Positions 39,486-64,000 of a stretch of DNA of 64,000 nt are shown here, in pieces. The notes below the pieces were generated by a model. That model was not told the origin of the DNA. It saw only the letters and a list, made by a program, of their open reading frames with translations, and made no database searches. The stretch comes from an archaeon (GTDB lineage Archaea; Nanobdellota; Nanobdellia; Pacearchaeales; GW2011-AR1). The stretch's first letter is position 1, and each line of letters opens with the position of its first letter. A program made the translations under genes and the position numbers. The DNA lies in NCBI GenBank assembly GCA_043815245.1, contig JBDRJD010000014.1, forward strand, positions 14,986 through 78,985, given 5' to 3'.

Positions 39486-39638
39486 ATGACAAAGTTTAAT
39501 TGTAAAGGATGCAATTATAGGTTTGAACTTAACAAAGAGGAATCCCCTGAAAGATGTCCTTACTGTGACATGAAAGGAAGTGTAATGAAAGAACAAACGG
39601 CGGATGAAATCCTGGATGAGATAGATAACATTAAATAA
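39486..39638 (+). CDS. Small zinc-ribbon protein (CxxC...CxxC) upstream of aglB
   Basis: Hand-found 50-aa ORF MTKFNCKGCNYRFELNKEESPERCPYCDMKGSVMKEQTADEILDEIDNIK. Confidence 0.45.
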   Translation: MTKFNCKGCNYRFELNKEESPERCPYCDMKGSVMKEQTADEILDEIDNIK

Positions 39639-39659
39639 ATTAAGGGAATTTTTATTTAT

Positions 39660-42380
39660 ATGGGTGAAGACAAATTTGAGAAAGATGGGAATCTCTTAAT
39701 AGAAAAGAGGAAAAAAGATATTCTGAAGTTTCTAAAAAGCAAAGGTAGCCTCTTAGTTATATTGGGGGTGATTATCTTAATTTTCTTAACTTGGCATACA
39801 AGAACTGTAAACCTGGAGCAGTTAAAAGATATAACTACGGGGGATTATACTTTGGGGCCGGACCTAGACCCTTTTTTGTTTTTGAGATATGCGGAAATGA
39901 TCTTAGAAACTGGAGATCTAGTGGAAGTGGATTACATGAGATATGTCCCCCTTGGGTATAATACTGCAGGAGAGACGCGGTTGCTACCTTACATGATTGT
40001 CTACCTTTATAAGGTCTTAAATTTTTTTAACCAGTCAACACTAAGTTACGCGGCAGTGATATTTCCCGCATTAATGTTTTTGTTAACTGCAGTGACTTTT
40101 TTTCTTTTTGTAAGAAAAGTTTTTGATAAGCATAAATATATGGACTGGATCTCATTAATAGCTACCGCCTTCCTTATTGTTTCGCCTTCCTTATTGTCTA
40201 GGACAGTGGCTGGAATTCCTGAGAAGGAATCTGCAGGCTTTTTCTTTATGTTCCTTGCTTTTTACTTTTTTATCTATGCTTGGAGATGTCAGAGTCTAAA
40301 AAAGAGTTTGATATTGGCTGTTCTGGCCGGAGTGTCTACTGCATTAATGGGTTTGATTTGGGGGGGTTGGATATATATCTGGGTTAGTATTGCTCTTTTT
40401 GCCTTTGTTGTTTTTATAATTGGGGGGGTGGGTAAAAAGGAAGCGTATGTTTATGGTTTGTGGTGGGTGTTTTCTGTTTTGGGGGTCATGGTTTTCTCAA
40501 CGAGATTTTCTCTGGCAGATTTGATATATTCAACTTCGACAGGAATAGCTTTTGTGGTGCTTTCCTTGATTATTGTGGACTACATAGTTTTTAATACAAA
40601 GATCAAAGAAATTAAGAATATAGTAAAAATGAGGTCAAAAGTTCCAGATCGCGTCATTTCGATAATCTTATTAACCATACTGGGAATAGCAGCCTCAACT
40701 ATCTTTTTAGGAATTTCTTTTATTCCAAATTTCGTTAGCCATATATTTTTCTCTTTAACACAACCATATACTGATAGACTTTCATTCACTGTTGCTGAAA
40801 ATAGACAGCCTTATTTTAGTGAATGGGCTGGGAGCTTTGGACCAATAGTTGGAAGCATACCTTTATTTTTCTGGTTATTTTTCTTAGGCTCTATATTGTT
40901 ATTTTATGACTCTGTAAAAAAGTTAGAGAAAAAGAGGAGGGGGATGCTTTTAGCAGGATACATTCTCTTTTTATTTGCCCTGATCTTTAGTAGATATGGC
41001 TCTAACCATATTATGAATGGAATGAACAATCTTAGTAAGGGCGTTTACTTCGGAGGATTTATAATTCTGGGAGGTATTGGAAGTTATATATATTACAAAT
41101 ATTATAAAGAGGGGGAATTAACTGAACTTAAAAAAATAGATACCTCTTATTTATTTTTGATAGCTTTTTTTATTGTAAGCTTAATAGGTGCTAGAAGTGC
41201 AGTTAGACTGATTATGGTTTTGTCACCTCCTGCTGCAGGGATAGTCGGTTTTTTTACAATGGCTGTTATTGAAAGGGCTAGAAAGGAAAAAGAAGAGACC
41301 TTGAAAATGGCCTTGGTAGTGGGGGCCATAATTATAGCGATCCTCTCAATATACGCATTTTACTTTAATTATCAGGTTACAGTGGCTCAGGCGAGGGGCA
41401 TGGTGCCTTCTTCATATACAAACCAGTGGCAAAAAGCAATGGAATGGGTAAGAACTGAAACCCCTGAAGAGGCGGTGTTCTCACATTGGTGGGATTACGG
41501 TTATTGGGTTCAAACAATTGGTGAAAGGGCGACTGTTTTAGATGGAGGGAACTCGCTCCCTTATTGGAATCATTTGATAGCACGCCACGTACTAACGGGT
41601 AATGATGAAAAAAATGCATTAGAATTTTTATATACGCACGAAGCCACGCACCTTTTAATTGACTCAACAGACGTTGGAAAATATCCTGCATATTCTACAA
41701 TTGGTAGTGATGAAAATTACGACAGAGCCAGTTGGTTGCCTGTAATGCAGAGAAGAGAAGATTTAATGAAGGAGACTAAGAACGGAACAGTACACTATTA
41801 CGAGGCCAATTTTGGATTAGATGAGGACATACTTTGGGAGATAGATGGTGGGCAGGTGTTACTCCCAGGAGGAGTCGCAGGCGTGGGAGCCATCCAACTG
41901 AAGATTGAGAATAATGAGTTGAAACAGCCAGAGGCAATTGTGATAGATAGGGGGAAACAGTATAACCTCCCCTTAAGATATGTTTACTATAAGGGAGAAC
42001 TAATAGATTTTGGCGGTGGGTTAGAGGCGGGAATATTCGTATTCCAGAGACTTATAAGTGATGGAAGTAGGATAAATGGAGTAGACGAAATTGGGGCAGC
42101 CATCTACCTTAGCCCTAGAACGATAAGAGGGTATATGGCTAGACTGTATTTGCTGGATGAACAAGATACTCCATTCAAGCTGGTCCATGTAGAAGAGAAC
42201 TTAATAGTTTCTCAGCTGAGAGCTCAGGGACTGCAGCTTGATTCTTTTGTATTATATGGTGGCCTGCTTGGCCCAATTAAAATTTGGGAGATTGAGTACC
42301 CCGGAGATATCACAGTAAATGGGACTTATCTTGAACTAGACTTTTCAAATGAGGAGTTAAAAATATCCAGGAGCGCATAA
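39660..42380 (+). CDS. aglB: Archaeal oligosaccharyltransferase AglB (STT3 homologue)
   Basis: A 906-aa protein with ~13 N-terminal TM helices and the diagnostic WWDYGYW motif (FSHWWDYGYWVQT), followed by a soluble C-terminal domain. Confidence 0.9.
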   Translation: MGEDKFEKDGNLLIEKRKKDILKFLKSKGSLLVILGVIILIFLTWHTRTVNLEQLKDITTGDYTLGPDLDPFLFLRYAEMILETGDLVEVDYMRYVPLGYNTAGETRLLPYMIVYLYKVLNFFNQSTLSYAAVIFPALMFLLTAVTFFLFVRKVFDKHKYMDWISLIATAFLIVSPSLLSRTVAGIPEKESAGFFFMFLAFYFFIYAWRCQSLKKSLILAVLAGVSTALMGLIWGGWIYIWVSIALFAFVVFIIGGVGKKEAYVYGLWWVFSVLGVMVFSTRFSLADLIYSTSTGIAFVVLSLIIVDYIVFNTKIKEIKNIVKMRSKVPDRVISIILLTILGIAASTIFLGISFIPNFVSHIFFSLTQPYTDRLSFTVAENRQPYFSEWAGSFGPIVGSIPLFFWLFFLGSILLFYDSVKKLEKKRRGMLLAGYILFLFALIFSRYGSNHIMNGMNNLSKGVYFGGFIILGGIGSYIYYKYYKEGELTELKKIDTSYLFLIAFFIVSLIGARSAVRLIMVLSPPAAGIVGFFTMAVIERARKEKEETLKMALVVGAIIIAILSIYAFYFNYQVTVAQARGMVPSSYTNQWQKAMEWVRTETPEEAVFSHWWDYGYWVQTIGERATVLDGGNSLPYWNHLIARHVLTGNDEKNALEFLYTHEATHLLIDSTDVGKYPAYSTIGSDENYDRASWLPVMQRREDLMKETKNGTVHYYEANFGLDEDILWEIDGGQVLLPGGVAGVGAIQLKIENNELKQPEAIVIDRGKQYNLPLRYVYYKGELIDFGGGLEAGIFVFQRLISDGSRINGVDEIGAAIYLSPRTIRGYMARLYLLDEQDTPFKLVHVEENLIVSQLRAQGLQLDSFVLYGGLLGPIKIWEIEYPGDITVNGTYLELDFSNEELKISRSA

Positions 42381-42381
42381 T

Positions 42382-43401
42382 ATGGAAGCTTTATTAATAA
42401 TTCCTTTGGTTCTGAGTTTCTTTCTTACATTCTTTATTCTCCCACCATGGATAAAAAAAGCGGGCGTGATAGGTTTTAAGTGGGAGGACATGAACAAGAC
42501 AGACCGACGAGAGGTTGCAGGGGGAGGGGGAATAAGTGTAGTCACAGGGTTTATTTTTGGAGTCTTGATTTACATTGCAATTCAAACTTTTTATTTTAAC
42601 AGTGCGGAGAATATTATTGAAATTTTTGCAATGATTTCCTCTATCCTAATATTAGGGTTTATTGGTCTAATCGATGATATGTTTGGGTGGCAACATGGGG
42701 GGTTAAGTAAAAAGTTTAGGGTGATAATGTGTTTGCTAGCCTCAATTCCTTTAGTAGTCATAAATGCTGGAACATCTGCGATTTCGGTGCCATTTATAGA
42801 GGGAATTAATCTGGGGCTAATTTATCCTTTAGTAGTCATCCCAATTGGGATAACAGGTGCGGCAACAACTTTTAATTTTCTTGCAGGATTTAATGGCCTG
42901 GAGGCTAGCCAAGGTATACTTTTAATAGCCTCCTTGGCTGTGGTGAACTACTATACTGGAAATATCTGGCTAGTGATTATATGCTTAGTAATGGTGGCAA
43001 GCTTGTTGGCATTTTGGGTTTTCAACAAGTACCCTTCAAAGGTGTTTCCAGGAGATAGTTTAACATATTCCATAGGGGGATTAATAGCAATAATTGCAAT
43101 TTTGGGGAATATAGAAAGAATTACTGTCTTTTTCTTCATACCTTATATCTTTGAAACGGTTTTGAAGGTTAGAGGGGGGCTTAAGAAGCAATCCTTTGGC
43201 AAGGTAAATGAAGATGGAAGTCTAGGGTTACCATATGAAAAAATATACGGACTTGAACATTTGGCAATCTATATAATTAAAAAGATGAAAAAGTCCGGGA
43301 GGGCATATGAGAGAGAAGTAGTTTATTTAATCTTATTTTTTCAGATGGGTATAATCGTGTTGGGGTTTATATTATTCAATAAAAGTATTTTTGGAATATG
43401 A
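42382..43401 (+). CDS. GPT/MraY/WecA-family polyprenyl-phosphate HexNAc-1-phosphate transferase (AglH-like)
   Basis: A multi-TM protein with typical GT4 (glycos_transf_4) features, including DDxxG-like IGLIDDMFG and NFLAGFNGLEAS. Confidence 0.65.
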   Translation: MEALLIIPLVLSFFLTFFILPPWIKKAGVIGFKWEDMNKTDRREVAGGGGISVVTGFIFGVLIYIAIQTFYFNSAENIIEIFAMISSILILGFIGLIDDMFGWQHGGLSKKFRVIMCLLASIPLVVINAGTSAISVPFIEGINLGLIYPLVVIPIGITGAATTFNFLAGFNGLEASQGILLIASLAVVNYYTGNIWLVIICLVMVASLLAFWVFNKYPSKVFPGDSLTYSIGGLIAIIAILGNIERITVFFFIPYIFETVLKVRGGLKKQSFGKVNEDGSLGLPYEKIYGLEHLAIYIIKKMKKSGRAYEREVVYLILFFQMGIIVLGFILFNKSIFGI

Positions 43402-44624
43402 TTAAAAGAATTTTATCAAATGAACTGGCCAAGGGAAGTTTTATCCTTTTGATTCTGATTAATGTTTTTAATATAATAAATTATTTGTTTCAATTTAGTA
43501 TGGCAAGGCTTCTTGGGCCGGCGGATTTTAGAATCATAGCTGCAATGATGTCCTTAATTTATATCTTTTCAGTTCCTTCAGAAGCTATCCAGACAATAAT
43601 CTCCAGGTATGCTTCCAAGTATAATCTTAGTAGAGAACTCGGAAGGATGAAGAACTTATTAGTAAAGGGTTTAAAAAAGGGGTTCTTGTTAGCTTTAGTA
43701 AGCTATCTTATATTTTCAGTTTTGGCTATTTTTTTAGCAGAGTTTATTAGAGTAGACTACTGGATTATTGAACTCACGGGCATTGTCATTTTTGGTAGCT
43801 TTTTGATGCCTGTGTTGAGGGGGGTGCTTCAAGGGCAAAAAAAGTTTGCTTCTCTTGGGGGGAGCTTGATTATTGAGGCAGGCATAAGATTGGTTCTGGC
43901 TGTTTTGCTGGTTGTGGCTGGATTTGGAGTATTTGGAGCGGTATGGGGAATTGTGATTGCAACTGTTTTAGGTTTTTTAGTTATATTTGTATTTATGAAA
44001 AGAGTGATTAGAAGTGATCTGGTAAGTGAGAAGGTTGAAGGAATCTACCGCTACAGCCTCCCTGTATTTATAACTATTTTAGTGATCGTTCTTATGTATA
44101 GTTTAGATGTTTGGTTTGCGAACAGATTTTTTTCTGTTGAAGAAGCGGGAGTATACGCAGTAGTATCAACTCTTGGCAAGATGATTTTCTTTGGTACCGT
44201 TGCTATAAGCAAGGCAATGTTTCCCTTGGCTAGTGAAGGCCATGAAGCGAAAAGGAATACTAAAAGAATATTAAAGAAAGCGCTCATTATAATAGTGGGT
44301 ATAAGCTTAGTGGCAATATTCCTTTTTTTAGTCTTTCCAAAATTAATAATAGGTATCCTGTTTGGAGAGGACTATATCTCCGGATATAGTATCTTAGTAT
44401 ATATTGGAATAGGATTTAGCTTGCTTTCGATAACAAATCTAGTTTTGATGTATGGGCTTTCCACAAATAAAGTTAATTTAAATTCGCTAATATTGTTCTT
44501 GTTTTTGTTAATTCAAATATTACTGTTTCTCCTATTTCATGGGAATCTTTTTGAGTTTTCGATAGCTTTTTTAAGTTCAAATATTCTAATGCTTATAGGA
44601 AGTTTGGTGATTACTTGGAAATAA
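43398..44624 (+). CDS. MOP-superfamily (Wzx/AglR-like) oligosaccharide flippase
   Basis: A 408-aa, ~12-TM polysaccharide-biosynthesis-protein-like protein that is translationally coupled to the GPT gene. Confidence 0.5.
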   Translation: MIKRILSNELAKGSFILLILINVFNIINYLFQFSMARLLGPADFRIIAAMMSLIYIFSVPSEAIQTIISRYASKYNLSRELGRMKNLLVKGLKKGFLLALVSYLIFSVLAIFLAEFIRVDYWIIELTGIVIFGSFLMPVLRGVLQGQKKFASLGGSLIIEAGIRLVLAVLLVVAGFGVFGAVWGIVIATVLGFLVIFVFMKRVIRSDLVSEKVEGIYRYSLPVFITILVIVLMYSLDVWFANRFFSVEEAGVYAVVSTLGKMIFFGTVAISKAMFPLASEGHEAKRNTKRILKKALIIIVGISLVAIFLFLVFPKLIIGILFGEDYISGYSILVYIGIGFSLLSITNLVLMYGLSTNKVNLNSLILFLFLLIQILLFLLFHGNLFEFSIAFLSSNILMLIGSLVITWK

Positions 44625-44637
44625 AGATTAAGGGAAA

Positions 44638-54170: not shown

Positions 54171-54183
54171 AAATATGTAAGAA

Positions 54184-56911: not shown

Positions 56912-56961
56912 GCATTGCTGAACTTAGGAATATATATAAAGTTTTTTATATAGAAAGGTAG

Positions 56962-58148: not shown

Positions 58149-58983
58149 CTATAAAAAGTACAATGAGGAAAAGTACGAGCAGGATTTTTGGACGATTAAT
58201 AGGTCAAAATATAAGTGGTTTAGCAACTATGTGAGACTGAAGATATTTAAAAAGTGGTGTTTAAGTGTAAAAAATAAAGGGGCATTTCTTGATGTTGGAG
58301 GAGGTGTAGGAAACTGGGCATTTCATTTTTTGGATTATTTTGAAAAAGTGATTGTGCTCGATATTTCAAAGAAAGCTCTGGAAAAAATTCCTGAAAAAGA
58401 GATAATAAAAAAGCAGGGGAGTGCTGATAAGATTCCTTTAAAGTCCAAGACAGTGGACTGCATTCTTTTAGCAGATGTATTGGAACATATACATCCTTCT
58501 GATTTGAATAAAGTTATGAAAGAGCTAAAAAGAGTTTTAAAAGATAATGGGAGGATAGTGATTCAAACTTCACTCTATGGTTATGGGATAGGGTTGGTTT
58601 TTAAGCGTGTTTTCAAAAAAATGAACGGTAGGTTGATGAAGTCTGAGATGAAGGAGGGGCATTTAAACAGGCTGAAATTTAATGAGATTAAAAGCCTTGC
58701 AAAAAAGAATGGGTTAATAATTGAAGACTATCTTTTTTACAGTATAATTTTTCAGCAACTAACTGACTTTATCAAAGACTTAACAGCAAAAGCCATGAGC
58801 AAGGAGAGTAAGCATATAAGAAAGGGTCAGGAATTAAAAGATAGGTTGAAAAAAGTTGAAAAACCAAGTAAGGTATTTAGAATGATATTTGGAACTTTCT
58901 CAAGAATATCTTACTTAGATATCATACTATTTGGGAAAATTTTGCCAGGACAGGGAATCTTCTTAAAACTAAGAAAGAATTAG
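58111..58983 (+). CDS. Class I SAM-dependent methyltransferase
   Basis: Has FLDVGGGVGNW (motif I) and ADVLEHI. The start may be the internal Met at 58138. Confidence 0.6.
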   Translation: MRDTPICFKMKFDYKKYNEEKYEQDFWTINRSKYKWFSNYVRLKIFKKWCLSVKNKGAFLDVGGGVGNWAFHFLDYFEKVIVLDISKKALEKIPEKEIIKKQGSADKIPLKSKTVDCILLADVLEHIHPSDLNKVMKELKRVLKDNGRIVIQTSLYGYGIGLVFKRVFKKMNGRLMKSEMKEGHLNRLKFNEIKSLAKKNGLIIEDYLFYSIIFQQLTDFIKDLTAKAMSKESKHIRKGQELKDRLKKVEKPSKVFRMIFGTFSRISYLDIILFGKILPGQGIFLKLRKN

Positions 58984-60096
58984 TTTCTCTATTTTGCCGA
59001 TTAGAATATCCCATCTAAACTCTTCAGCTTTTATTCTCGCTTGTTTTTGTATTTCTTTTATTCTTCGTAAGTTTTTTTTAGCTAAAATAAATAAAATCAC
59101 TTCAGATAGATTTTTTTCATCTCCGGTTTTAAACAAAAAACCGTCTTTCTTATCAGAGATTATCTCCTTTCCTGCTTTATTATCTGAAGAGATGACTATT
59201 TTACCGACAGCCATTGCTTCCACTAGGGCTTGGGGCATTGCCTCAGAAATAGATGGTAAAACAAAAATGTCAGTATTCCTCAAGGCATCAACACGCTCCC
59301 GTAGGGAGTATACTGGGGGGAAGAACCTTAGATTCCTGATTTTTAATTTGGAGGCTAAATTTTTAAGGTTACTAGTGCAAGGCTGTTCTTGGGGCCCAGT
59401 TATTTTAAGCTTTAGTTGGGGATACTCGGTTGAAACCAATTTAAAGGATTTGATAAGTGTTTCAAGATTTTTTATGTTTGCTATTCTTCCAAAAAATAAA
59501 ATTGAGTCCCCATTAAATTGCGAAATTTTTGGTTTAAAAAATTCTTTTGGGATGCCATTTGGAACATAACTTATTTTTTCTTTCTTTGCTCCGAGAGCCA
59601 AGAGAAAGGGGGCCTCCCACTTAGTAATTGTGATAATCCTGTCAAACTCATTTAGTATTCTCCTAGCAATAAATTTATCATAAATTGAAACTGCCACTTT
59701 AGAAAAAAATGAACGTGTTGAGTTCCCTTCAATAAATGGGGCGTGCGTCACAAGAAAAACTTTGGCATTTATTTTTTTCGCTATTTTTAGTGCTTTAGTA
59801 GTATGCAGGTGCCTGTAACTGTGGGCAATGATGATATCCGGCCTTAACTTAATTGCTTCTGCAGTAAAGTCCCAGGACATAAAACTTTCCCCCCCTAATT
59901 TTTTAGTTGGAAATCGCTTTATTTTAACTCTTCCTAGAGTATCTTCAGGTAAAGCAAGCTCGCCAGAACCTTTTGTAATATCTGAGGAAAAAATATAAAC
60001 CTCATATTTTTTAGATAAAAGCTCTGCTTCTTGTTTGACTCTTTGCCAAACACCGCAAACTCCTGCTGAATAGTTGGTTAGTTCTAAAATTCTCAT
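58969..60096 (-). CDS. GT4 (GT-B) glycosyltransferase
   Basis: Has the C-terminal SEAMPQALVEAMAVGKIVISSD motif. Confidence 0.6.
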   Translation of the reverse strand: MRILELTNYSAGVCGVWQRVKQEAELLSKKYEVYIFSSDITKGSGELALPEDTLGRVKIKRFPTKKLGGESFMSWDFTAEAIKLRPDIIIAHSYRHLHTTKALKIAKKINAKVFLVTHAPFIEGNSTRSFFSKVAVSIYDKFIARRILNEFDRIITITKWEAPFLLALGAKKEKISYVPNGIPKEFFKPKISQFNGDSILFFGRIANIKNLETLIKSFKLVSTEYPQLKLKITGPQEQPCTSNLKNLASKLKIRNLRFFPPVYSLRERVDALRNTDIFVLPSISEAMPQALVEAMAVGKIVISSDNKAGKEIISDKKDGFLFKTGDEKNLSEVILFILAKKNLRRIKEIQKQARIKAEEFRWDILIGKIEKLILS

Positions 60097-61161
60097 TTAT
60101 GATTCTCCTTTTAATAATGCATCTATCGCTTTTTTAACTTTTTCTGTAGGTATTTTTCTGACTTTTTTGTTAAAGATAAGGGTATAGTTATGGGGGTGCT
60201 GCCAGGGATGCCATGTTTCAGGATAAGTGCAAAATAATGCAACTGTTTTAGTTTTAGATGCGGCTGCGAAATGGATAGCTGAAGTATCTATGCTGACTAG
60301 AATTTTAGACTTTGAAATAAGGGAAGCATATTCATTAATTTTTAACTTCCCGGTGAAGTCATAAACTTTTTCAGTTTTGTCTAAATTACTAATTATATTT
60401 TTAGCAATAAGTGAATCTTCGCTTGAACCGCCGATTATTACTGGGAGGGCATGTTTTTTGTTAAGATGATTTACAATTTCCGCAAACTTTTTCTCGTCCC
60501 ATAAATAATTTTTCCCTGCCAAGGAACGCTTGCCCGGATGAATTATTGCAAAATTCCTAATTTTGTTTTTCCTGAGGAGCGAGTCAACTTTCAGCCCATC
60601 TTTTTTAGAAGGAAAAGTCTCCATTAAAATATCTTTGGAGGTAACCTTCAAGTACTTAGCAGGAAAAAGATTCTCTTTAACTTTGTGAACTTCACGTAAA
60701 GAAGGAAAGATACACCTAGTTAAAAAGAAGGAGTTAATATTAGCATAAGCGGTCTGAGCGTAACCAATTCTGTAAGTAATCTTAGCTTTGAGAAGTGTTA
60801 TAAACATTTTAAGTGAGCAGGGGTAGATCGTAATTGCTAATTGATATTTTTGATGAATCTTCTTTTCAAAAGCGGGATAGTTCTCAAAAACTAGTATTTT
60901 GTTAATATGAGGATTATTTTGAAGGATAGTCTCCATTCCGGACCTTACAGCGACATCGATTTTATAACTTTTGGAGAGGCACTTGATTAGGGGGGTTGTC
61001 GCGAGTAAGTCACCTATAAAACCAAGATTAACAATTAGAATAGACTTGATTGGACTTTTAGAAATTTTTTTGAACTTAAATGGAGAGAATATAAGCCATA
61101 CTAAGTAGTTAATTAATTGGAAAGTCTTTCTTCTTATTTTTTTAAGTGTCTCGGGGGACAT
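60097..61161 (-). CDS. GT9 heptosyltransferase (second copy)
   Basis: Has ILIVNLGFIGDLLATTPLIKCL and IDTSAIHFAAASKTKTVALF. Confidence 0.6.
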   Translation of the reverse strand: MSPETLKKIRRKTFQLINYLVWLIFSPFKFKKISKSPIKSILIVNLGFIGDLLATTPLIKCLSKSYKIDVAVRSGMETILQNNPHINKILVFENYPAFEKKIHQKYQLAITIYPCSLKMFITLLKAKITYRIGYAQTAYANINSFFLTRCIFPSLREVHKVKENLFPAKYLKVTSKDILMETFPSKKDGLKVDSLLRKNKIRNFAIIHPGKRSLAGKNYLWDEKKFAEIVNHLNKKHALPVIIGGSSEDSLIAKNIISNLDKTEKVYDFTGKLKINEYASLISKSKILVSIDTSAIHFAAASKTKTVALFCTYPETWHPWQHPHNYTLIFNKKVRKIPTEKVKKAIDALLKGES

Positions 61162-61215
61162 ATATGTTCGAATGTGATAAGGTTTATATAGGTTTTTAGT
61201 ATCTGCCTTTTATAA

Positions 61216-62322
61216 ATGGTAGAAAGATTCTATAATCTAGATCCGAGAAAAATAAAGATAGTTAACTTGATTCCTATTGGGCGATCCAGCTCTATATTTT
61301 TACAAGGCTTATTGGATTGGCATCCAGAAATAATCACAATTTTAGGAAATTTCTATCCTGAGAAAAGTGACTTGCAGAGTAGACGGTTTGAGGTTATTGC
61401 CAAGAAGATATATGGGAAGATAAATGCGATGACTAAACATTATAATACTACCTATGATTTGGGAAGAAACTTTCCTGAGGGGAAATTTGCCGGTTACTTG
61501 AAAGAGTATACAGATGTCTTTGGAATGAGTATCGGGTCTTTGTTTATTGGGGCACACTATGCATATGCTAGGCATTATAAAAGGGATATTTCCAAGATAA
61601 AGTATATTCTTGCCCATGCGCATGGGGCGACTTTATTTCACCAAATTGTAAAAGACTTTCCCAAGCAGAAACTGATTTTTACAATAAGAGATCCTAGAGC
61701 TAATTACCTTTCATATAAAAAAATTGGAATATTGGTTCACGGAACACTATATCAATATGAAAATTATCTTTTGTATAGAAAACTAAAAAAAATAGGATAT
61801 CCAATAATTATAATTAGGCATGAGGATATGCATACAAAATATGAAGAGGTTAAAAAGGGACTAATTGAATTTTTAGGTATTAAAAAGTCCAAGAGTTTAG
61901 ATTCCTGTAGTTTTTTTAATCTGGCTTATGATGGTAGTGAGAGTAAAATAAGCTCAAGTCAAAATCTTTCTGATACGCGGCCTAATAAAAAGTTCGTGAA
62001 TGAGAAGTGGAAATCAGATTTGTCTACCTCAGAATTAAACCTAATTCAGTTTATTTTTCGTAAAATGATGGAGGAATTTAAGTATCGGAAGTATTATTCA
62101 GGGGGGGAAATAGTAATAAAATTTCTTAATACTGATGTTAGGAGCTTATCGAGAAGCAATTTAGAATCTAAAAAAGGAATAAAAAAATTTCTGCTCACTT
62201 TTGCAAGGTTTATTTATCAAATTCCCATACTTGGAATAATATTAATTGATATTAGTTTATTGCTGTACTACTTTTTTATGATCATTCTAGCAATTCTAAA
62301 AGTTATTGTGAAAAAAGTTTAG
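61216..62322 (+). CDS. Sulfotransferase-family protein with C-terminal TM helix
   Basis: Has a 5'-PSB-like IPIGRSSSIF and a 3'-PB-like FTIRDPRANYLSYKK. The C-terminus is hydrophobic (ILGIILIDISLLLYYFFMIILAIL). Confidence 0.45.
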   Translation: MVERFYNLDPRKIKIVNLIPIGRSSSIFLQGLLDWHPEIITILGNFYPEKSDLQSRRFEVIAKKIYGKINAMTKHYNTTYDLGRNFPEGKFAGYLKEYTDVFGMSIGSLFIGAHYAYARHYKRDISKIKYILAHAHGATLFHQIVKDFPKQKLIFTIRDPRANYLSYKKIGILVHGTLYQYENYLLYRKLKKIGYPIIIIRHEDMHTKYEEVKKGLIEFLGIKKSKSLDSCSFFNLAYDGSESKISSSQNLSDTRPNKKFVNEKWKSDLSTSELNLIQFIFRKMMEEFKYRKYYSGGEIVIKFLNTDVRSLSRSNLESKKGIKKFLLTFARFIYQIPILGIILIDISLLLYYFFMIILAILKVIVKKV

Positions 62323-63769
62323 AGATAAGCTTTTCATTAATATAATCTTCACATCCTGCTCTTTCAGGATGCCACATTACACCTAAGATGTCTAGGGTGG
62401 GGTGATAAACTCCCTCTATATATCCGTCGGAAGTTGTTGCAAAGCTTCTAAGCTCTCTTGAAAGTACTTCTGTAGAAACGCAATGATTATGAAAAGAGTT
62501 TACTGTAAAATTTTCATTGCCTAAAAATGTCTGAAATCCGGAATCGGCTATTTCTATAGGATGTGTTTTAGCGACATGATCTTCTTTACCAGCTCCTTGC
62601 AGGAGTTTTCCCCCAAAATAAACATTAAGAAATTGCATTCCTCTGCACTGGCACAGAACAGGTAACTTATGTTTAATTGCAAAATCTAGAATTTTCTTCT
62701 CTGTTGAATCGCGAAAATCTGAATGGTCAGAAGATTCAGATCTCAGACCATGGTATAAAGTGGGATTTACATCATTGCCTCCAGAGAGGATAAACCCGGA
62801 AACATCCAGTTCCTTAAGATATTCTTCTACATCTTGAAGAGTATTTGGTACAGGAATGAGGATCAATCCGTATTTAGAGTAATATTTTGCATAGTCTTGT
62901 TCTAAAGCATCTTTATCAGCCCCTTTATCGGCGCGGACTACTCTTTGAGAGATAGCAATTTTTTTTGTTGTGTTTTGTATCTCATCTAACTTAACAAATC
63001 TTTTTAAGATACCTTGTTGCAGCCATTTTGTATAGTTTTCATAGTCCTCATTTGTATCAAACTCCAGCCAGCCGCGCTTAATCAAAATTGGTGAAACTTT
63101 GTAACCCTCATTAACCAAGGCTTGAAGTATGCAGGTCATATAAGCTTTTTTAAATGACTTGGATCTTAACCAGGGGGAGTCTTTATCCCAAAATTTTTCT
63201 CTATTCTTATGATAAACTTTTTTTAGGGCTTCTGCTCCAGATTTTGAGAATTTGATTAGGCCCACATAACGCACTTTAGCTTGGCTTCTTGAGCAAGAAG
63301 TGTTCCCAAGGTCTACAACCTCTCCATCTCTATCAATGATAAGACTTTCCATATCTTCTTCTGGGTTTGGCATCCTAGCACTCCAATAGTCCCAGTAGTC
63401 TTCATCGATTGTAACACCAATATCTACTTTTGAGGCTAGTACTTTATCAAGAACTTTTTTTTCGTAGAGGATATCAGAGTAACAAACTAAAATATCATCA
63501 TTAAACTCAGGCTCGGCTTGCATTAAGGAAGCTACCATGTTAGTTTCTTCATAAAGAGGGTTATGGTAGTATTTTACTCCAGAAATCTGGATTTTCTCTT
63601 TCATATATCCTGTAACAATGATAATGTCCTTTATGCCCGCTTCACGAAGAAGCTCGACCTGCCGTTCAATTAGAGGCTGGCCATTAAAGTTTAGCATGCC
63701 TTTTGGGAGATTTTCTGTGTATTTGTTTAATCGAGTTCCCTTACCTGCTGCAAGAATTATTGCTTTCAT
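62303..63769 (-). CDS. Fusion protein: N-terminal sugar-phosphate nucleotidyltransferase + C-terminal class-I glutamine amidotransferase (peptidase C26/PuuD-like)
   Basis: Has N-terminal MKAIILAAGKGTRLN. The C-terminus has ILSGGNDVNPTLYHG...LCQCRGMQFLNVYFGG...VNSFHNHCV (a Cys-His GATase1 triad pattern). Confidence 0.55.
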   Translation of the reverse strand: MKAIILAAGKGTRLNKYTENLPKGMLNFNGQPLIERQVELLREAGIKDIIIVTGYMKEKIQISGVKYYHNPLYEETNMVASLMQAEPEFNDDILVCYSDILYEKKVLDKVLASKVDIGVTIDEDYWDYWSARMPNPEEDMESLIIDRDGEVVDLGNTSCSRSQAKVRYVGLIKFSKSGAEALKKVYHKNREKFWDKDSPWLRSKSFKKAYMTCILQALVNEGYKVSPILIKRGWLEFDTNEDYENYTKWLQQGILKRFVKLDEIQNTTKKIAISQRVVRADKGADKDALEQDYAKYYSKYGLILIPVPNTLQDVEEYLKELDVSGFILSGGNDVNPTLYHGLRSESSDHSDFRDSTEKKILDFAIKHKLPVLCQCRGMQFLNVYFGGKLLQGAGKEDHVAKTHPIEIADSGFQTFLGNENFTVNSFHNHCVSTEVLSRELRSFATTSDGYIEGVYHPTLDILGVMWHPERAGCEDYINEKLISKLFSQ

Positions 63770-63770
63770 A

Positions 63771-64000
63771 TTAACTTATCCCTGTAATTTGCTGAGTAGC
63801 ACAATTTAATTCAATTTTTTTAAAATTACGAACATAATCGAAAATTGTAGAGCCACAACCAATGGCTGCTGGAAGGTTGAATTCTGCGCATCTAATTGAC
63901 ATGTGAGAGGCCACACCCCCATATTTTGTTAATAATCCTTTGATGTTATGGCCAAACACCCAGTCATAACCAGGATCGGCGTTGGTAATTAGAACAATCT
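63771..64000 (-). CDS. PEP-utilising-enzyme swivel-domain protein, C-terminal end (5' partial; gene continues past window end)
   Basis: Ends ...YGGVASHMSIRCAEFNLPAAIGCG, which resembles the phospho-histidine mobile domain (GGRTSHAAIIARE.GIPAVVG) of PEP synthase / PPDK / RPH-like enzymes. Confidence 0.4.
   Translation of the reverse strand, partial: IVLITNADPGYDWVFGHNIKGLLTKYGGVASHMSIRCAEFNLPAAIGCGSTIFDYVRNFKKIELNCATQQITGIS

What the first reader, a model, noticed from the sequence alone, without database searches (positions are those of the whole stretch)
39486..64000. ~25-kb archaeal surface-glycan island built around AglB
The island combines a GPT initiator, flippase, GT2/GT4 enzymes, a second GT-C enzyme, WecB, a B12-rSAM, an ADP-heptose pathway, GT9 x2, a sulfotransferase and amidotransferase-like genes. 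Genes are back-to-back and often overlap by 4 nt, so this is a co-ordinated module, not scattered genes. Archaeal N-glycosylation (Agl) clusters are known, but the pairing of AglB with an LPS-inner-core-style ADP-heptose/GT9 set, plus a sulfotransferase and a WbpG/QueC-like enzyme, is not a described Agl pathway as far as I know. It predicts a heptose-containing, possibly sulfated and amidated N-glycan on the S-layer-like protein at 13272-16457.
Basis: partly seen in the sequence, partly recalled or inferred. Interest (0 to 1): 0.85.

Follow-up and report, generated by a model that had tools for sequence, protein, structure and literature searches.

The report
DPANN archaeal heptose N-glycosylation gene island
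A tightly packed set of about 24 genes in an uncultivated DPANN archaeon encodes the machinery to build and attach a surface-protein sugar chain. The chain probably contains heptose. A gene cassette at the island's end looks like the rare phosphoramidate pathway of Campylobacter, not an amidotransferase.

Summary

Corrections:
- The "second GT-C" is real (AF2 pLDDT 90; Foldseek matches STT3, ArnT and ALG9).
- The "amidotransferase" is an NTP-transferase fused to a C26 hydrolase. Together with the truncated PEP-utilising enzyme at the window edge, it matches the Cj1416/Cj1417/Cj1418 cytidine-diphosphoramidate trio.
- The "sulfotransferase" keeps the PAPS-type motifs, but its donor is unknown.
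- The host is a DPANN (Woesearchaeota-like) MAG.

Seven related DPANN loci share parts of the core AglB-GPT-flippase ... GT-C-GT9/GT2-GT4. The GT9 and GT2 genes are fused in three of them. The distal arm varies: phosphoramidate genes here, phosphonate genes in L001, sulfation genes in L083.

No characterised Agl pathway uses ADP-heptose and GT9. However, a heptose N-glycan is known in Thermoplasma, archaeal NDP-heptose enzymes have been described, and phosphoramidate genes have been predicted in archaeal Borg elements.

Verdict: a new variant of a known kind, of moderate interest. Every function is inferred from sequence.

The parts
39660..42380 (+). AglB/STT3 oligosaccharyltransferase, 906 aa
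   Evidence: Pfam STT3 69 bits and STT3-PglB_core 24 bits. TIGR04154 gives 111 bits, below its cutoff. WWDYG at residue 610, DLD at residue 68, and 14 hydrophobic segments. PDB hits to Pyrococcus AglB and to yeast and human STT3, E about 1e-10.
42382..43401 (+). Polyprenyl-phosphate HexNAc-1-phosphate transferase (GPT, AglH/WecA/MraY family)
   Evidence: Pfam Glycos_transf_4 110 bits. 8 hydrophobic segments. Orthologs 53-60% identical lie next to AglB or the flippase in L001, L081, L083 and L084.
43398..44624 (+). Wzx/AglR-type flippase (MOP family)
   Evidence: Polysacc_synt_3 62 bits and Polysacc_synt 47 bits. 10 hydrophobic segments.
44638..45411 (+). GT2a glycosyltransferase, AglJ / Dol-P-hexose transferase-like
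   Evidence: Glycos_transf_2 76 bits. Weak NCBIfam hits to AglJ, ArnC and Dol-P-hexose transferase. Conserved at 43-51% identity in all seven related DPANN loci.
45408..46328 (+). GT2b glycosyltransferase with a C-terminal membrane segment
   Evidence: Glycos_transf_2 68 bits. Transmembrane segment at 266-292. Orthologs in L001, L083 and L085.
46304..47479 (+). GT4a (GT-B) glycosyltransferase
   Evidence: Glycos_transf_1 121 bits.
47473..48933 (-). B12-binding radical-SAM enzyme, probably a methyltransferase; substrate unknown
   Evidence: Radical_SAM 83 bits and B12-binding 49 bits. No NCBIfam equivalog cutoff is reached. Relatives at 26-30% identity sit in other DPANN glycan loci: L021, L024, L084 and L086.
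48970..50049 (-). WecB, non-hydrolysing UDP-GlcNAc 2-epimerase (makes UDP-ManNAc)
   Evidence: TIGR00236 444 bits, cutoff 210. Pfam Epimerase_2 389 bits.
50051..51679 (-). GT-C fold glycosyltransferase (GT39/PMT/ArnT-like), conserved across DPANN
   Evidence: No Pfam hit for the window protein itself. Over 230 homologs at about 50% identity, many with precomputed PMT/PMT_2 domains and the NCBI name 'glycosyltransferase family 39'. AF2 model pLDDT 90.4. Foldseek PDB hits to STT3, AglB, PglB, ArnT, ALG9 and Pmt4, E 3e-10 to 1e-5. The first-loop motif WWDExDY is invariant.
51669..53069 (-). HldE, bifunctional heptose-7-phosphate kinase and heptose-1-phosphate adenylyltransferase
   Evidence: NF008454 444 bits (cutoff 521). 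rfaE_dom_II 183 bits (cutoff 181.5). rfaE_dom_I 315 bits (cutoff 345). Closest relatives are Woesearchaeota MAGs at 62% and 53% identity.
53056..53583 (-). GmhB, heptose 1,7-bisphosphate 7-phosphatase
   Evidence: TIGR00213 157 bits (cutoff 149.6). NF006506 178 bits (cutoff 178).
53598..54170 (-). GmhA, sedoheptulose-7-phosphate isomerase
   Evidence: TIGR00441 229 bits (cutoff 209).
54184..55284 (-). GT9a, heptosyltransferase-family GT-B enzyme
   Evidence: Glyco_transf_9 56 bits, cutoff 22. Scores fall below all LPS heptosyltransferase equivalog cutoffs. Orthologs lie beside the GT-C gene in L001, L081 and L082, and are fused to the GT2c ortholog in L084-L086.
55355..55759 (+). Nucleoside 2-deoxyribosyltransferase-like protein (NDT/Rcl fold); role unexplained
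   Evidence: Nuc_deoxyrib_tr 67 bits. PDB hits to NDTs and a CMP N-glycosidase. Sits between GT9a and GT2c in the window, L001, L081 and L082.
55743..56651 (-). GT2c glycosyltransferase with a C-terminal membrane segment; functional partner of GT9a
   Evidence: Glyco_tranf_2_3 52 bits. Orthologs 40-64% identical in all seven related loci. Fused to GT9a in L084-L086.
56708..56911 (-). Conserved 67-aa ORF, KOW/EF-P N-terminal-like; function unknown
   Evidence: ORF listed. Weak EFP_N hit, E 6e-4. A 71-72 aa gene occupies the same position in L081 and L082; the L082 copy is 46% identical.
56962..57654 (+). Divergent QueC-family PP-loop ATPase; role unexplained
   Evidence: Pfam QueC 161 bits. TIGR00364 132 bits, below the cutoff of 150.3. 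Only 45 bits to B. subtilis QueC, yet SGGLDS and C...CGDCAGC are retained. Syntenic in L001, L081 and L082; absent from L083-L086.
57651..58148 (+). NUDIX hydrolase, overlaps the QueC-like gene by 4 nt
   Evidence: NUDIX 65 bits. Not present at this position in L001, L081 or L082.
58111..58983 (+). Class I SAM-dependent methyltransferase
   Evidence: Methyltransf_11 65 bits.
58969..60096 (-). GT4b (GT-B) glycosyltransferase
   Evidence: Glycos_transf_1 106 bits. Best NCBIfam hit is Agl16, 68 bits, below its cutoff. Homologs in L001 and L081-L083 at 27-29% identity, L085 at 49%.
60097..61161 (-). GT9b, second heptosyltransferase-family enzyme
   Evidence: Glyco_transf_9 68 bits. RfaQ/heptosyltransferase III-like, about 99 bits, below cutoffs. 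PDB hits 3tov and 1psw.
61216..62322 (+). Membrane-anchored sulfotransferase-fold enzyme from a rare family; donor unresolved
   Evidence: Sulfotransfer_1 22.5 bits (cutoff 22) and Sulfotransfer_3 20.7 bits. Only 5 clusters in the 5.8-billion-protein index. Invariant GRSxS (5'-PSB), H136 and RDPR (3'-PB). The family profile hits sulfotransferase 5x2b, E 4e-4, with the His and 3'-PB motif aligned. C-terminal hydrophobic helices.
62303..63769 (-). Fusion of a LicC-like NTP (cytidylyl) transferase and a C26 gamma-glutamyl hydrolase; Cj1416 plus Cj1417 analogue
   Evidence: NTP_transf_3 60 bits and Peptidase_C26 123 bits. The best NCBIfam hit for the C26 half is gamma-glutamyl-CDP-amidate hydrolase, 107 bits (cutoff 250), against 49 bits for PuuD. 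The N-terminal half matches LicC 1jyk, E 1e-17. JGI names homolog P0129 'L-glutamine-phosphate cytidylyltransferase'. The two domains are separate adjacent genes in L074 and L076.
63771..64000 (-). C-terminal 75 aa of a PEP-utilising, PPDK-like enzyme (Cj1418 L-glutamine kinase-like); cut by the window end
   Evidence: Translation contains GGVASHMSIRCAEFNLPA. Its only NCBIfam hit at E <= 1e-6 is NF004508/PRK05849, 125 bits, profile positions 715-786 of 789. It is 62-64% identical to the C-termini of the 980-992 aa proteins of L076 and L074, which score 862 and 854 bits against a cutoff of 501.
13272..16457 (-). Candidate acceptor: 1061-aa secreted, C-terminally anchored surface protein
   Evidence: Signal-peptide-like N-terminus. 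52 N-X-S/T sequons against 17 expected from composition. C-terminal transmembrane segment plus a basic tail. Only a weak CarboxypepD_reg hit.

Best explanation
This is the protein N-glycosylation (Agl-type) locus of a DPANN archaeon related to Woesearchaeota and Pacearchaeota. It has a conserved core plus add-on modules.

Inferred mechanism:
1. On the cytoplasmic face, the GPT primes dolichyl phosphate with a HexNAc-1-phosphate.
2. Soluble GT2, GT4 and GT9 enzymes extend the chain. They draw on UDP-ManNAc from WecB and on ADP-D-glycero-beta-D-manno-heptose made by GmhA, HldE and GmhB. No HldD epimerase is present, so the heptose stays in the D,D form.
3. The B12-radical-SAM and SAM methyltransferases decorate the sugars.
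4. The Wzx-like flippase moves the lipid-linked glycan across the membrane.
5. AglB transfers it to Asn sequons of surface proteins such as the 1061-aa protein at 13272-16457.
6. The conserved trio of GT9a, GT2c and the GT-C enzyme probably adds a further residue outside the membrane from a lipid-phosphate sugar, as AglD/AglS or ArnC/ArnT do.
7. The distal cassette makes cytidine diphosphoramidate: a Gln-kinase-like enzyme, then a cytidylyltransferase, then a gamma-glutamyl hydrolase. This supplies a phosphoramidate decoration. The transferase for that step is unidentified.

Shown here: family memberships, the GT-C fold, synteny and motif conservation. Inferred: every substrate, the order of steps, and that all genes serve a single glycan.
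For: - Families are confirmed by Pfam/NCBIfam. AglB carries WWDYG and has STT3 hits in the PDB.
- GmhA and GmhB score above their equivalog cutoffs, as does the HldE adenylyltransferase domain.
- The GT-C fold was modelled at pLDDT 90.4 and matches STT3, ArnT, ALG9 and Pmt4.
- AglB-GPT-flippase lies within 10 kb of the GT-C gene in L081, L083 and L084; L085 has AglB and the flippase but no GPT gene. GT9a/GT2c lies next to the GT-C gene in L001, L081, L082 and L084-L086, and the two are fused in L084-L086.
- HldE, or a related PfkB kinase, sits between the GT-C gene and GT9 in the window, L001 and L086.
- The phosphoramidate trio is conserved as neighbouring genes in L074, L076 and the P0129 locus.
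- Housekeeping genes in the first 39 kb are archaeal: L10/P0, Spt5-NGN, TYW1 and diphthamide synthesis.
- The nearest HldE and GT-C relatives come from Woesearchaeota, Nanoarchaeota and Pacearchaeota MAGs.
- The candidate acceptor carries three times the expected number of sequons.
Against: - There is no experimental data; the organism is an uncultivated MAG.
- AglB is not within 10 kb of HldE in 15 other archaeal-labelled HldE loci. There the heptose genes sit with GT9 and GT2 genes elsewhere. The link between heptose and N-glycosylation therefore rests on this window and on the GT9-AglB synteny.
- L081 and L082 have the GT9 gene but no heptose-pathway genes nearby.
- GT9a and GT9b score below every LPS heptosyltransferase equivalog cutoff, so their donor sugar is assumed, not shown.
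- The C26 domain scores 107 bits against a 250-bit cutoff for the Cj1417 family.
- No Cj1415-like kinase and no Cj1421/Cj1422-like transferase was seen. The source contig continues beyond the window and could not be fetched.
- The link between NF004508 and Cj1418 rests on domain architecture and on my recollection of the literature, not on a direct alignment.
Confidence: 0.62

Rival explanations
1. There are two or more separate pathways that are only neighbours. AglB, GPT, the flippase and the first GT2/GT4 genes make the N-glycan. The heptose genes, GT9 enzymes, the GT-C enzyme and the distal cassette build a different surface glycoconjugate, such as a glycolipid, lipoglycan or capsule-like polymer, or an O-linked or other GT-C-dependent protein modification.
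For: - The island has seven strand switches.
- The heptose genes are not near AglB in 15 other archaeal-labelled HldE loci.
- Canonical GT9 acceptors are lipid-linked (LPS inner core; established knowledge).
- The GT-C enzyme resembles ArnT and PMT, which modify lipid A or Ser/Thr.
- CDP-alcohol phosphotransferase and TagF-like genes accompany the phosphoramidate trio elsewhere.
Against: - AglB-GPT-flippase and GT-C-GT9/GT2 stay within about 10-12 kb of each other in DPANN genomes whose orthologs are only about 50% identical.
- Only one GPT and one flippase are present in the island.
- No second initiating enzyme, polymerase or export system was detected.
Confidence: 0.22
2. The protein at 61216-62322 is an ordinary PAPS-dependent sulfotransferase and the glycan is sulfated. 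Its position next to the phosphoramidate genes is a coincidence.
For: - The 5'-PSB (GRSSS) motif, 3'-PB (RDPR) motif and a His aligned with the SULT catalytic His are invariant in the family.
- Its closest homologs (P0002, P0004) sit in a glycan cluster without the trio.
- The equivalent island in L083 carries an ATP-sulfurylase fusion and a Sulfotransfer_3 gene, so sulfation does occur in such islands.
- Sulfated archaeal N-glycans are well known (PMC11407970).
Against: - No ATP sulfurylase or APS kinase is present in the 64-kb window.
- A sulfotransferase-family gene again lies two genes from the Cj1416-18-like trio in an independent locus.
Confidence: 0.5
3. The QueC-like, NDT-like and NUDIX genes are housekeeping genes for archaeosine/preQ0 synthesis and nucleoside salvage. 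They are embedded in the island and play no part in glycan synthesis.
For: - The QueC-like protein aligns end to end with QueC and keeps the PP-loop and the zinc-binding Cys cluster.
- The window also holds tRNA-modification and nucleoside-salvage genes: TYW1, an AMP-phosphorylase-like gene and an IF-2B family gene.
- These genes are absent from L083-L086, where GT9 and GT2 are directly fused.
- The NUDIX gene is present only in the window.
Against: - The interleaved order GT9, NDT, GT2, small ORF, QueC, GT4 on alternating strands is kept in four genomes whose orthologs are about 40-60% identical.
- The QueC-like protein is divergent: it is below the TIGR00364 cutoff and scores 45 bits to B. 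subtilis QueC.
- No QueD, QueE or tRNA-guanine transglycosylase gene is in the window.
Confidence: 0.5
4. The distal trio does not make a phosphoramidate. The LicC-like transferase activates another phospho-compound, such as phosphocholine or a phosphonate. The C26 and PPDK-like enzymes then serve an unrelated reaction.
For: - The NTP-transferase domain's best PDB match is CTP:phosphocholine cytidylyltransferase, and NCBI names homologs 'phosphocholine cytidylyltransferase family'.
- The C26 domain scores below the Cj1417 family cutoff.
- In L001 a related NTP-transferase domain is fused to PEP mutase, i.e. it belongs to a phosphonate pathway.
- The PPDK-like proteins of L074 and L076 carry an extra cytidylyltransferase-like domain that I recall is absent from Cj1418.
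Against: - The three gene types co-occur as neighbours or fusions in at least four loci.
- The PPDK-like protein falls in one specific NCBIfam equivalog family rather than with PEP synthases.
- The Cj1417 family is the best C26 match by about 58 bits.
- The JGI annotation of P0129 independently gives L-glutamine-phosphate cytidylyltransferase.
Confidence: 0.2

Closest known systems
Haloferax volcanii Agl N-glycosylation cluster (AglJ/G/I/E/D/R/S with AglB)
   Same: A gene cluster built around aglB. It contains GT2 and GT4 enzymes, a Wzx-like flippase (AglR) and methyltransferases. A Dol-P-sugar synthase works with a GT-C-type enzyme (AglD/AglS) to add a final sugar outside the membrane.
   Different: The Haloferax glycan is built on Dol-P from hexoses and hexuronic acids. 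It has no GPT-type initiator, no ADP-heptose pathway, no GT9, no B12-rSAM and no phosphoramidate or phosphonate cassette. No window protein reaches an Agl equivalog cutoff.
Bacterial LPS inner-core ADP-heptose pathway (GmhA, HldE, GmhB, HldD; WaaC/WaaF/WaaQ, GT9)
   Same: GmhA, GmhB and the HldE adenylyltransferase domain pass their equivalog cutoffs. HldE has the bifunctional architecture. Two GT9-family enzymes are present.
   Different: There is no HldD epimerase, no Kdo or lipid A genes and no outer membrane. Both GT9 proteins score far below the WaaC/WaaF/WaaQ cutoffs. The context is an archaeal AglB/dolichol pathway.
Campylobacter jejuni capsule O-methyl phosphoramidate (MeOPN) pathway, Cj1415-Cj1418 with Cj1421/Cj1422
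   Same: It has a PPDK-like enzyme with a phosphohistidine domain, a cytidylyltransferase and a C26 gamma-glutamyl hydrolase as neighbours. It sits in a glycan cluster that also makes a heptose. In C. jejuni, MeOPN is attached to a heptose (PMC11800397). SAM methyltransferases lie nearby.
   Different: Here the cytidylyltransferase and hydrolase are fused. No Cj1415-like kinase or Cj1421/Cj1422-like transferase was seen. The host is an archaeon, and the heptose donor is of the ADP type rather than the GDP type. Scores for the C26 domain are below the equivalog cutoff.
Thermoplasma acidophilum N-linked glycan containing a heptose
   Same: An archaeal N-glycan with a heptose otherwise known from bacterial LPS (PMC11407970). 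This shows that heptose N-glycans exist in Archaea.
   Different: The review passages found name no biosynthetic genes for it. Thermoplasma is a euryarchaeon unrelated to DPANN. Its glycan carries sulfofucose and is not known to carry phosphoramidate.
Predicted MeOPN and phosphonate gene cluster of Borg extrachromosomal elements of Methanoperedens (bioRxiv 10.1101/2024.11.05.622173)
   Same: An in-silico prediction of Cj1416/Cj1417/Cj1418-like genes, and of a PEP mutase-cytidylyltransferase fusion, next to N-glycan genes in an archaeal context.
   Different: The genetic element and lineage differ. There is no ADP-heptose/GT9 module, and that inference was based on predicted structure. Here the phosphoramidate (window) and phosphonate (L001) cassettes occupy the same position in orthologous chromosomal islands.
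ArnC/ArnT and GtrA/GtrB/Gtr* three-component glycan modification systems
   Same: A membrane-anchored GT2 is paired with a GT-C enzyme. The GT-C model matches ArnT with E 6e-7.
   Different: The GT2 partner is coupled, and in three genomes fused, to a GT9 domain. I know of no such coupling in Arn or Gtr systems. The donor and acceptor are unknown.

Membership tests
AglB/STT3 oligosaccharyltransferase | STT3 N-terminal multi-span membrane domain | tested here: met
   Pfam STT3 69 bits, cutoff 24.5. 14 hydrophobic segments in the first 570 residues.
AglB/STT3 oligosaccharyltransferase | WWDYG catalytic motif in the C-terminal domain | tested here: met
   WWDYG at residue 610. That region aligns to Pyrococcus AglB and eukaryotic STT3 structures, E about 1e-10.
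AglB/STT3 oligosaccharyltransferase | DxD in the first external loop, and a DK or MI motif | tested here: inconclusive
   DLD at residue 68 and DVGK at residue 671 were found by pattern search only. They were not verified by structural alignment.
AglB/STT3 oligosaccharyltransferase | Transfers a lipid-linked glycan to Asn | not testable with these tools
   Needs biochemistry.
ADP-heptose biosynthesis pathway | GmhA sedoheptulose-7-phosphate isomerase | tested here: met
   TIGR00441 229 bits, cutoff 209.
ADP-heptose biosynthesis pathway | Bifunctional HldE (PfkB kinase plus cytidylyltransferase-like domain) | tested here: met
   PfkB 138 bits and CTP_transf_like 67 bits. rfaE_dom_II 183 bits against 181.5. 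rfaE_dom_I 315 bits against 345, slightly below. Full-length model 444 bits against 521.
ADP-heptose biosynthesis pathway | GmhB bisphosphate phosphatase | tested here: met
   TIGR00213 157 bits, cutoff 149.6.
ADP-heptose biosynthesis pathway | HldD ADP-heptose 6-epimerase (for the L,D-heptose of LPS) | tested here: not met
   No NAD-dependent epimerase is present among the island ORFs. L001 has an SDR epimerase, but its best hits are dTDP-glucose dehydratase and GalE.
GT9 heptosyltransferases | Glyco_transf_9 domain | tested here: met
   56 and 68 bits against a cutoff of 22.
GT9 heptosyltransferases | Orthology to LPS heptosyltransferase I, II or III (WaaC, WaaF, WaaQ) | tested here: not met
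   The best scores are 64 and 99 bits, against cutoffs of 134-569.
GT9 heptosyltransferases | Uses ADP-heptose as donor | not testable with these tools
   Inferred only from the adjacent GmhA gene (13-nt gap, same strand) and from HldE.
Cytidine diphosphoramidate (MeOPN-type) pathway | L-glutamine kinase (Cj1418 type: PPDK-like ATP-binding domain plus phosphohistidine domain) | tested here: inconclusive
   Only the last 75 aa lie in the window. They hit NF004508 alone (125 bits) and contain the GGxxSH motif. Full-length orthologs in L074 and L076 pass the cutoff at 854 and 862 bits against 501. That NF004508 contains Cj1418 is my recollection, not a test.
Cytidine diphosphoramidate (MeOPN-type) pathway | CTP:phosphoglutamine cytidylyltransferase (Cj1416) | tested here: inconclusive
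   NTP_transf_3 domain, LicC-like. JGI names homolog P0129 L-glutamine-phosphate cytidylyltransferase. No direct comparison with Cj1416 was possible.
Cytidine diphosphoramidate (MeOPN-type) pathway | Gamma-glutamyl-CDP-amidate hydrolase (Cj1417) | tested here: inconclusive
   NF045546 is the best hit at 107 bits, but the cutoff is 250. GATase-type Cys (CRGMQ) and HPE motifs are visible in the sequence.
Cytidine diphosphoramidate (MeOPN-type) pathway | Cytidine diphosphoramidate 3'-kinase (Cj1415, APS-kinase-like) | tested here: not met
   No APS-kinase-family hit appears among the window ORFs scanned. About 32 kb of the source contig lies outside the window.
Cytidine diphosphoramidate (MeOPN-type) pathway | Phosphoramidate transferase (Cj1421/Cj1422) | not tested
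   No reference sequences were available in the tools.
PAPS-dependent sulfotransferases | 5'-PSB and 3'-PB nucleotide-binding motifs and a catalytic base | tested here: met
   GRSxS, RDPR and H136 are invariant in the 5-member family. The His and 3'-PB motif align with sulfotransferase 5x2b. Pfam Sulfotransfer_1 22.5 bits against 22.
PAPS-dependent sulfotransferases | PAPS supply (ATP sulfurylase, APS kinase) in the genome | tested here: inconclusive
   None is present in the 64-kb window. The rest of the MAG is not available.
QueC (7-cyano-7-deazaguanine synthase) | PP-loop SGGxDS and C-terminal zinc-binding Cys cluster | tested here: met
   SGGLDS at residues 9-14, and C186 followed by CGDCAGC at residues 204-210. 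Full-length alignment to 3bl5.
QueC (7-cyano-7-deazaguanine synthase) | Score above the equivalog cutoff | tested here: not met
   TIGR00364 132 bits against 150.3. NF008317 60 bits against 378.
GT-C glycosyltransferases | GT-C membrane fold with an acidic motif in the first external loop | tested here: met
   AF2 pLDDT 90.4. Foldseek hits to STT3, AglB, PglB, ArnT, ALG9 and Pmt4. W46 W47 D48 E49 D51 Y52 are invariant.

The most novel reading that the evidence does not exclude
The surface N-glycan of this DPANN archaeon carries a phosphoramidate (P-N) group, possibly on heptose as in the Campylobacter jejuni capsule. The group is installed by the neighbouring sulfotransferase-fold enzyme. That enzyme would use 3'-phospho-cytidine diphosphoramidate, a PAPS look-alike, instead of PAPS. 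This would be a new activity for the sulfotransferase fold and the first phosphoramidate-bearing glycoprotein in Archaea. A related point is that orthologous islands swap phosphoramidate, phosphonate and sulfate cassettes at the same position, which would make this arm an anionic-decoration hotspot. A sulfotransferase-family gene lies beside or two genes from the Cj1416-18-like genes in two independent loci (window).
Probability: 0.15. Interest if true: 0.8.

Novelty: new variant of a known kind. Interest (0 to 1): 0.55.

Why it matters
Surface glycans are the interface through which DPANN episymbionts touch their hosts, yet none of the papers found describes their N-glycosylation pathway beyond gene presence.

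This locus gives a concrete gene-level model with four useful consequences:
- It offers an answer to the question left open by the work on archaeal NDP-heptose enzymes: what the heptose is for (PMC11461863). The proposal is an AglB-linked glycan built by GT9 enzymes.
- It defines a conserved DPANN module (GT-C, GT9 and GT2, with GT9 and GT2 sometimes fused) that can be tested in vitro.
- It suggests that phosphoramidate chemistry, so far established in Campylobacter capsules and a few LPS, extends to DPANN archaea. Phosphoramidate genes have previously only been predicted for archaeal Borg elements.
- It shows that phosphoramidate, phosphonate and sulfate cassettes replace one another at the same locus position.

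The enzymes are soluble or of standard membrane types, so heterologous assays are feasible without cultivating the organism.

Tried and rejected
- **Fetching the rest of the source contig.** Exact look-ups with three window proteins and with P0001 found nothing. GmhA returned only contigs of 1.5 kb or less. The genes beyond position 64000 therefore remain unseen.
- **Single-sequence AlphaFold of the sulfotransferase-like protein.** The model was unusable (pLDDT 41). I used motif and profile evidence instead.
- **Sequence searches of the GT-C protein.** phmmer and a 25-sequence profile found nothing in the PDB, and Pfam found nothing for the window protein. Only the structure search resolved it.
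- **Hidden sulfotransferases near the trio.** I tested whether the unknown ORFs next to the phosphoramidate trio in L074 and L076 belong to the sulfotransferase-like family. The A1 profile found only the known L077 paralogs. By eye, the two L074 ORFs look like histidine-phosphatase-type proteins.
- **AglB near HldE elsewhere.** AglB was not found near HldE in any of the 15 other archaeal-labelled HldE loci that could be checked; L001 ends right after the GPT gene and cannot be scored.
- **Methyltransferase orthology.** The window SAM methyltransferase has no ortholog among the methyltransferases next to the trio in L074 and L076 (no hit). An O-methyl phosphoramidate is therefore not specifically supported.
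- **WbpG-type amidotransferase reading of the C26 gene.** Rejected because of its NTP-transferase fusion and its PPDK-like partner.
- **Primary literature on Cj1415-Cj1418.** The Raushel-laboratory papers are not held in the library, and a search for 'PRK05849' found no paper.
- **HldE nucleotide specificity.** HldE has LTTGKSTS rather than (F/L)xxGxSTT, with no Arg upstream. I could not apply the published specificity rule with confidence.
- **Composition.** GC content across the island (0.33-0.38) does not differ from the rest of the window, so there is no sign of recent transfer.

Full report
**1. What is in the sequence**

Between 39660 and 64000 there are 24 ORFs. Gaps between them run from -38 to +70 nt, three junctions are exact 4-nt overlaps, and 98.7% of the DNA is coding. 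GC content is the same as in the rest of the window.

- AglB/STT3, with WWDYG at residue 610 and STT3 hits in the PDB.
- A Glycos_transf_4 phosphotransferase and a Polysacc_synt flippase.
- Three GT2 and two GT4 enzymes.
- A B12-binding radical-SAM enzyme.
- WecB (444 bits, cutoff 210).
- GmhA, GmhB and HldE, at or just around their equivalog cutoffs.
- Two GT9 proteins.
- A QueC-family protein.
- A borderline sulfotransferase hit.
- A Peptidase_C26 protein.

AglB starts at 39660, not 39486. No HldD epimerase is present, so the predicted donor is ADP-D-glycero-beta-D-manno-heptose.

**2. Whose genome it is**

The first 39 kb carry archaeal housekeeping genes: ribosomal L1, L10/P0, L11, L3 and L4, plus SecY, Spt5-NGN, FtsZ, TYW1 and a diphthamide-synthesis gene.
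- The exact proteins are on record as 'MAG... [archaeon]', locus tags ABIE22_02130 and ABIE22_02195, on a 95,967-bp contig.
- The nearest HldE relatives are in Woesearchaeota MAGs, at 62% and 53% identity.
- The nearest relatives of the GT-C protein are from Nanoarchaeota and Pacearchaeota MAGs.

The host is therefore a DPANN archaeon. The contig itself could not be fetched.

**3. The 'second GT-C enzyme'**

The 542-aa protein at 50051-51679 has no Pfam or PDB sequence hit of its own. It does have more than 230 homologs at about 50% identity across DPANN. Many of these carry PMT/PMT_2 domains and the NCBI name 'glycosyltransferase family 39'.

An AlphaFold model built on 25 homologs reached pLDDT 90.4. 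Foldseek matched it to STT3, AglB, PglB, ArnT, ALG9 and Pmt4, with E from 3e-10 to 1e-5 and TM-scores of 0.5-0.66. The first external loop carries an invariant WWDExDY motif. The GT-C claim is confirmed. The protein lacks WWDYG, so it is not a second oligosaccharyltransferase.

**4. The island is a conserved DPANN locus**

I examined the gene neighbourhoods of seven GT-C homologs: L001 and L081-L086.
- AglB lies within 10 kb of the GT-C gene in L081 and L083-L085, always beside the flippase; the GPT gene sits between them in L081, L083 and L084 but is not called in L085. L001's contig ends right after the GPT gene, so its AglB is unseen; no AglB-type STT3 lies within L082 or L086.
- Orthologs of GT2a occur in all seven loci and of GT2b in three (L001, L083, L085), between the flippase end and the GT-C gene.
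- Orthologs of GT9a and GT2c lie on the other side of the GT-C gene in six of the seven loci. L083 has GT2c but no GT9. A GT4b homolog follows in L001 and L081-L083 (27-29% identity) and L085 (49%).
- In L084, L085 and L086, GT9a and GT2c are one fused protein of 628-634 aa. This argues that they act together.
- HldE, or in L086 a PfkB kinase 41% identical to the HldE kinase domain, sits between the GT-C gene and GT9 in the window, L001 and L086.

The pairing of AglB with GT9 is therefore not a peculiarity of this window.

There is a counterpoint. In 15 other archaeal-labelled HldE loci, the heptose genes lie with GT9 and GT2 genes but not within 10 kb of AglB. L081 and L082 have the GT9 gene without nearby heptose genes.

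**5.

The 488-aa protein at 62303-63769 is a fusion.
- Its N-terminal half is a LicC-like NTP transferase (PDB 1jyk, E 1e-17).
- Its C-terminal half is a C26 hydrolase. The best NCBIfam match is gamma-glutamyl-CDP-amidate hydrolase (107 bits, cutoff 250), against 49 bits for the next C26 family, PuuD.

Immediately downstream, cut by the window edge, are the last 75 residues of a PEP-utilising enzyme carrying the phosphohistidine motif GGVASH. Their only NCBIfam hit at E <= 1e-6 is NF004508/PRK05849, at 125 bits over profile positions 715-786 of 789.

In metagenome loci L074 and L076 the same three functions are neighbouring genes (adjacent in L076; three genes intervene before the transferase in L074). 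The PPDK-like proteins there are 980-992 aa and score 854-862 bits against a cutoff of 501. About ten protein clusters show the fused NTP-C26 architecture. JGI names one of them, P0129, 'L-glutamine-phosphate cytidylyltransferase'.

This trio corresponds to Cj1418 (L-glutamine kinase), Cj1416 and Cj1417 of Campylobacter jejuni. [quoted passage not shown] I recall from the literature that Cj1418 is 779 aa with a catalytic His737. That position agrees with the His in the profile alignment, but it is a recollection and not a test.

No Cj1415-like kinase is in the window. No reference sequence for the Cj1421/Cj1422 transferases was available to the tools.

**6. The cassette position is variable**

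In the syntenic island of L001 this arm instead holds two phosphonate-pathway genes. One is a PEP-mutase/NTP-transferase fusion (TIGR02320 336 bits, cutoff 320). The other is a 2-aminoethylphosphonate transaminase (TIGR03301 364 bits, cutoff 361). In L083 the arm holds an ATP-sulfurylase fusion and a Sulfotransfer_3 gene. Orthologous DPANN islands thus appear to exchange phosphoramidate, phosphonate and sulfate modules.

**7. The sulfotransferase-like gene**

The gene at 61216-62322 belongs to a very small family, with 5 clusters found.
- The family has an invariant GRSxS (5'-PSB) motif, an invariant His, and an invariant RDPR (3'-PB) motif.
- Its profile reaches sulfotransferase 5x2b in the PDB at E 4e-4, with the His and the 3'-PB motif aligned.
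- A hydrophobic C-terminus probably anchors it in the membrane.

It is a genuine member of the sulfotransferase fold, but its donor is open.
- For PAPS: its homologs in L077-L080 sit in a glycan cluster without the trio, and L083 shows that sulfation occurs in islands of this type.
- For a PAPS-like 3'-phospho-CDP-amidate: the gene abuts the trio here, and an unrelated Sulfotransfer_1/3 gene lies two genes from the trio in the P0129 locus. No sulfate-activation gene is in the window.
- L074 and L076 carry TagF-like phosphotransferases instead. Such enzymes could use CDP-amidate directly.

I rate the phosphoramidyl-transferase reading as possible but unproven, at about 0.15.

**8. QueC-like, NDT-like and the small ORF**

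The order GT9a, NDT-like, GT2c, 67-72-aa ORF, QueC-like, GT4b, on alternating strands, is kept in the window, L001, L081 and L082 (in L001 an SDR epimerase gene also sits between GT9a and the NDT-like gene, and no small ORF was detected). It is absent from L083-L086.

The QueC-like protein keeps the PP-loop and the zinc-binding Cys cluster. It is nevertheless divergent: TIGR00364 gives 132 bits against 150.3, and it scores only 45 bits to B. subtilis QueC. I cannot decide between a housekeeping role in preQ0 synthesis and a glycan-related amidation or nitrile chemistry.

**9. Candidate acceptor**

The 1061-aa protein at 13272-16457 has a signal-peptide-like N-terminus and a C-terminal transmembrane segment with a basic tail. 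It carries 52 N-X-S/T sequons against 17 expected from its composition. It is a credible heavily N-glycosylated surface protein, like those proposed for cultivated DPANN (bioRxiv 10.1101/2023.10.27.564410).

**10. Comparison with what is known, and verdict**

Clustering of Agl genes around aglB is well known. So are sulfated and otherwise exotic archaeal N-glycans, including a heptose in Thermoplasma acidophilum (PMC11407970). NDP-heptose enzymes have been shown to work in archaea, with their purpose left open (PMC11461863). MeOPN-like genes have been predicted in archaeal Borg elements.

I found no paper describing an AglB-linked ADP-heptose/GT9 pathway, the DPANN GT-C-GT9/GT2 module, or interchangeable phospho- and sulfo-decoration cassettes.

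This is a new variant of a known kind of system. Its gene content is well supported, but its chemistry is entirely inferred. Interest is moderate (0.55). It gives testable functions for archaeal heptose and for a possible archaeal phosphoramidate, but it rests on a single MAG window plus synteny.

Noticed in passing
window 56708-56911 (-): A 67-aa ORF with a weak KOW/EF-P N-terminal-like hit. A 71-72 aa gene sits at the same position, upstream of the GT2c ortholog and divergent from the QueC-like gene, in L081 and L082. Its function is unknown.
   Followed up: partly
L084 2894-4798, L085 8069-9955, L086 7150-9036: Natural fusions of a GT9 domain and a GT2 domain (628-634 aa). They are orthologous to the separate window genes GT9a and GT2c, and they lie beside or near the GT-C homolog (adjacent in L085; one gene away in L086, several in L084).
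   Followed up: yes
L001 574-3483: In the syntenic Woesearchaeota island, a PEP mutase-NTP transferase fusion and a 2-aminoethylphosphonate transaminase occupy the arm where the window has the phosphoramidate genes. Both score above their equivalog cutoffs.
   Followed up: yes
L083 4116-7922: An equivalent DPANN island carries a 734-aa fusion of pyruvate-kinase-like, PUA_2 and ATP-sulfurylase domains. It also has a CDP-alcohol phosphotransferase and a Sulfotransfer_3-like gene in the variable arm.
   Followed up: partly
L074 3962-6940; L076 7053-9995; P0129 locus: The glutamine-kinase-like proteins of these loci carry an extra N-terminal cytidylyltransferase-like domain of about 170 aa. That domain resembles HldE domain II and the Fom1 cytidylyltransferase domain. 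As I recall, Cj1418 lacks it. Whether the window protein has it is unknown, because the gene is cut by the window end.
   Followed up: no
L074 7623-9888: A HIT-family gene and two ORFs without Pfam hits lie between the C26 hydrolase and the NTP transferase of the trio. One of the two begins with an RHA-type histidine-phosphatase-like motif.
   Followed up: partly
window 34175-36853 (-): An FkbM-family methyltransferase lies about 3 kb upstream of AglB, flanked by two ORFs without Pfam hits (364 aa and 215 aa). An AI-2E transporter gene and an AMP-phosphorylase-like gene separate it from AglB. It may be an outlying part of the glycan locus.
   Followed up: no
window 37969-39435 (+) and 19859-20731 (+): A thymidine/AMP-phosphorylase-like gene sits directly upstream of AglB, and an IF-2B-family gene (ribose-1,5-bisphosphate isomerase-like) lies further upstream. 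Both fit the archaeal AMP/nucleoside salvage route.
   Followed up: no
loci L003-L011: The closest non-archaeal relatives of the window HldE, at about 38-42% identity, are from Campylobacterales, Spirochaetota and Leptospirales. This hints at an old inter-domain transfer of the heptose genes.
   Followed up: no
P0146, P0147, P0203: Close homologs of the NTP-transferase domain are fused in other organisms to a type-I phosphodiesterase domain (PF01663) or to a TagF-like Glyphos_transf domain.
   Followed up: no
window 62303-63769: The public annotation of this protein is 'gamma-glutamyl-gamma-aminobutyrate hydrolase family protein'. It ignores the N-terminal nucleotidyltransferase domain and the phosphoramidate-pathway context.
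   Followed up: yes
window 1855-1928 (-), 12825-12904 (+): tRNA-Pro(UGG) and tRNA-Ser(UGA) are the only RNA genes found in the window by ARAGORN and Rfam.
   Followed up: yes
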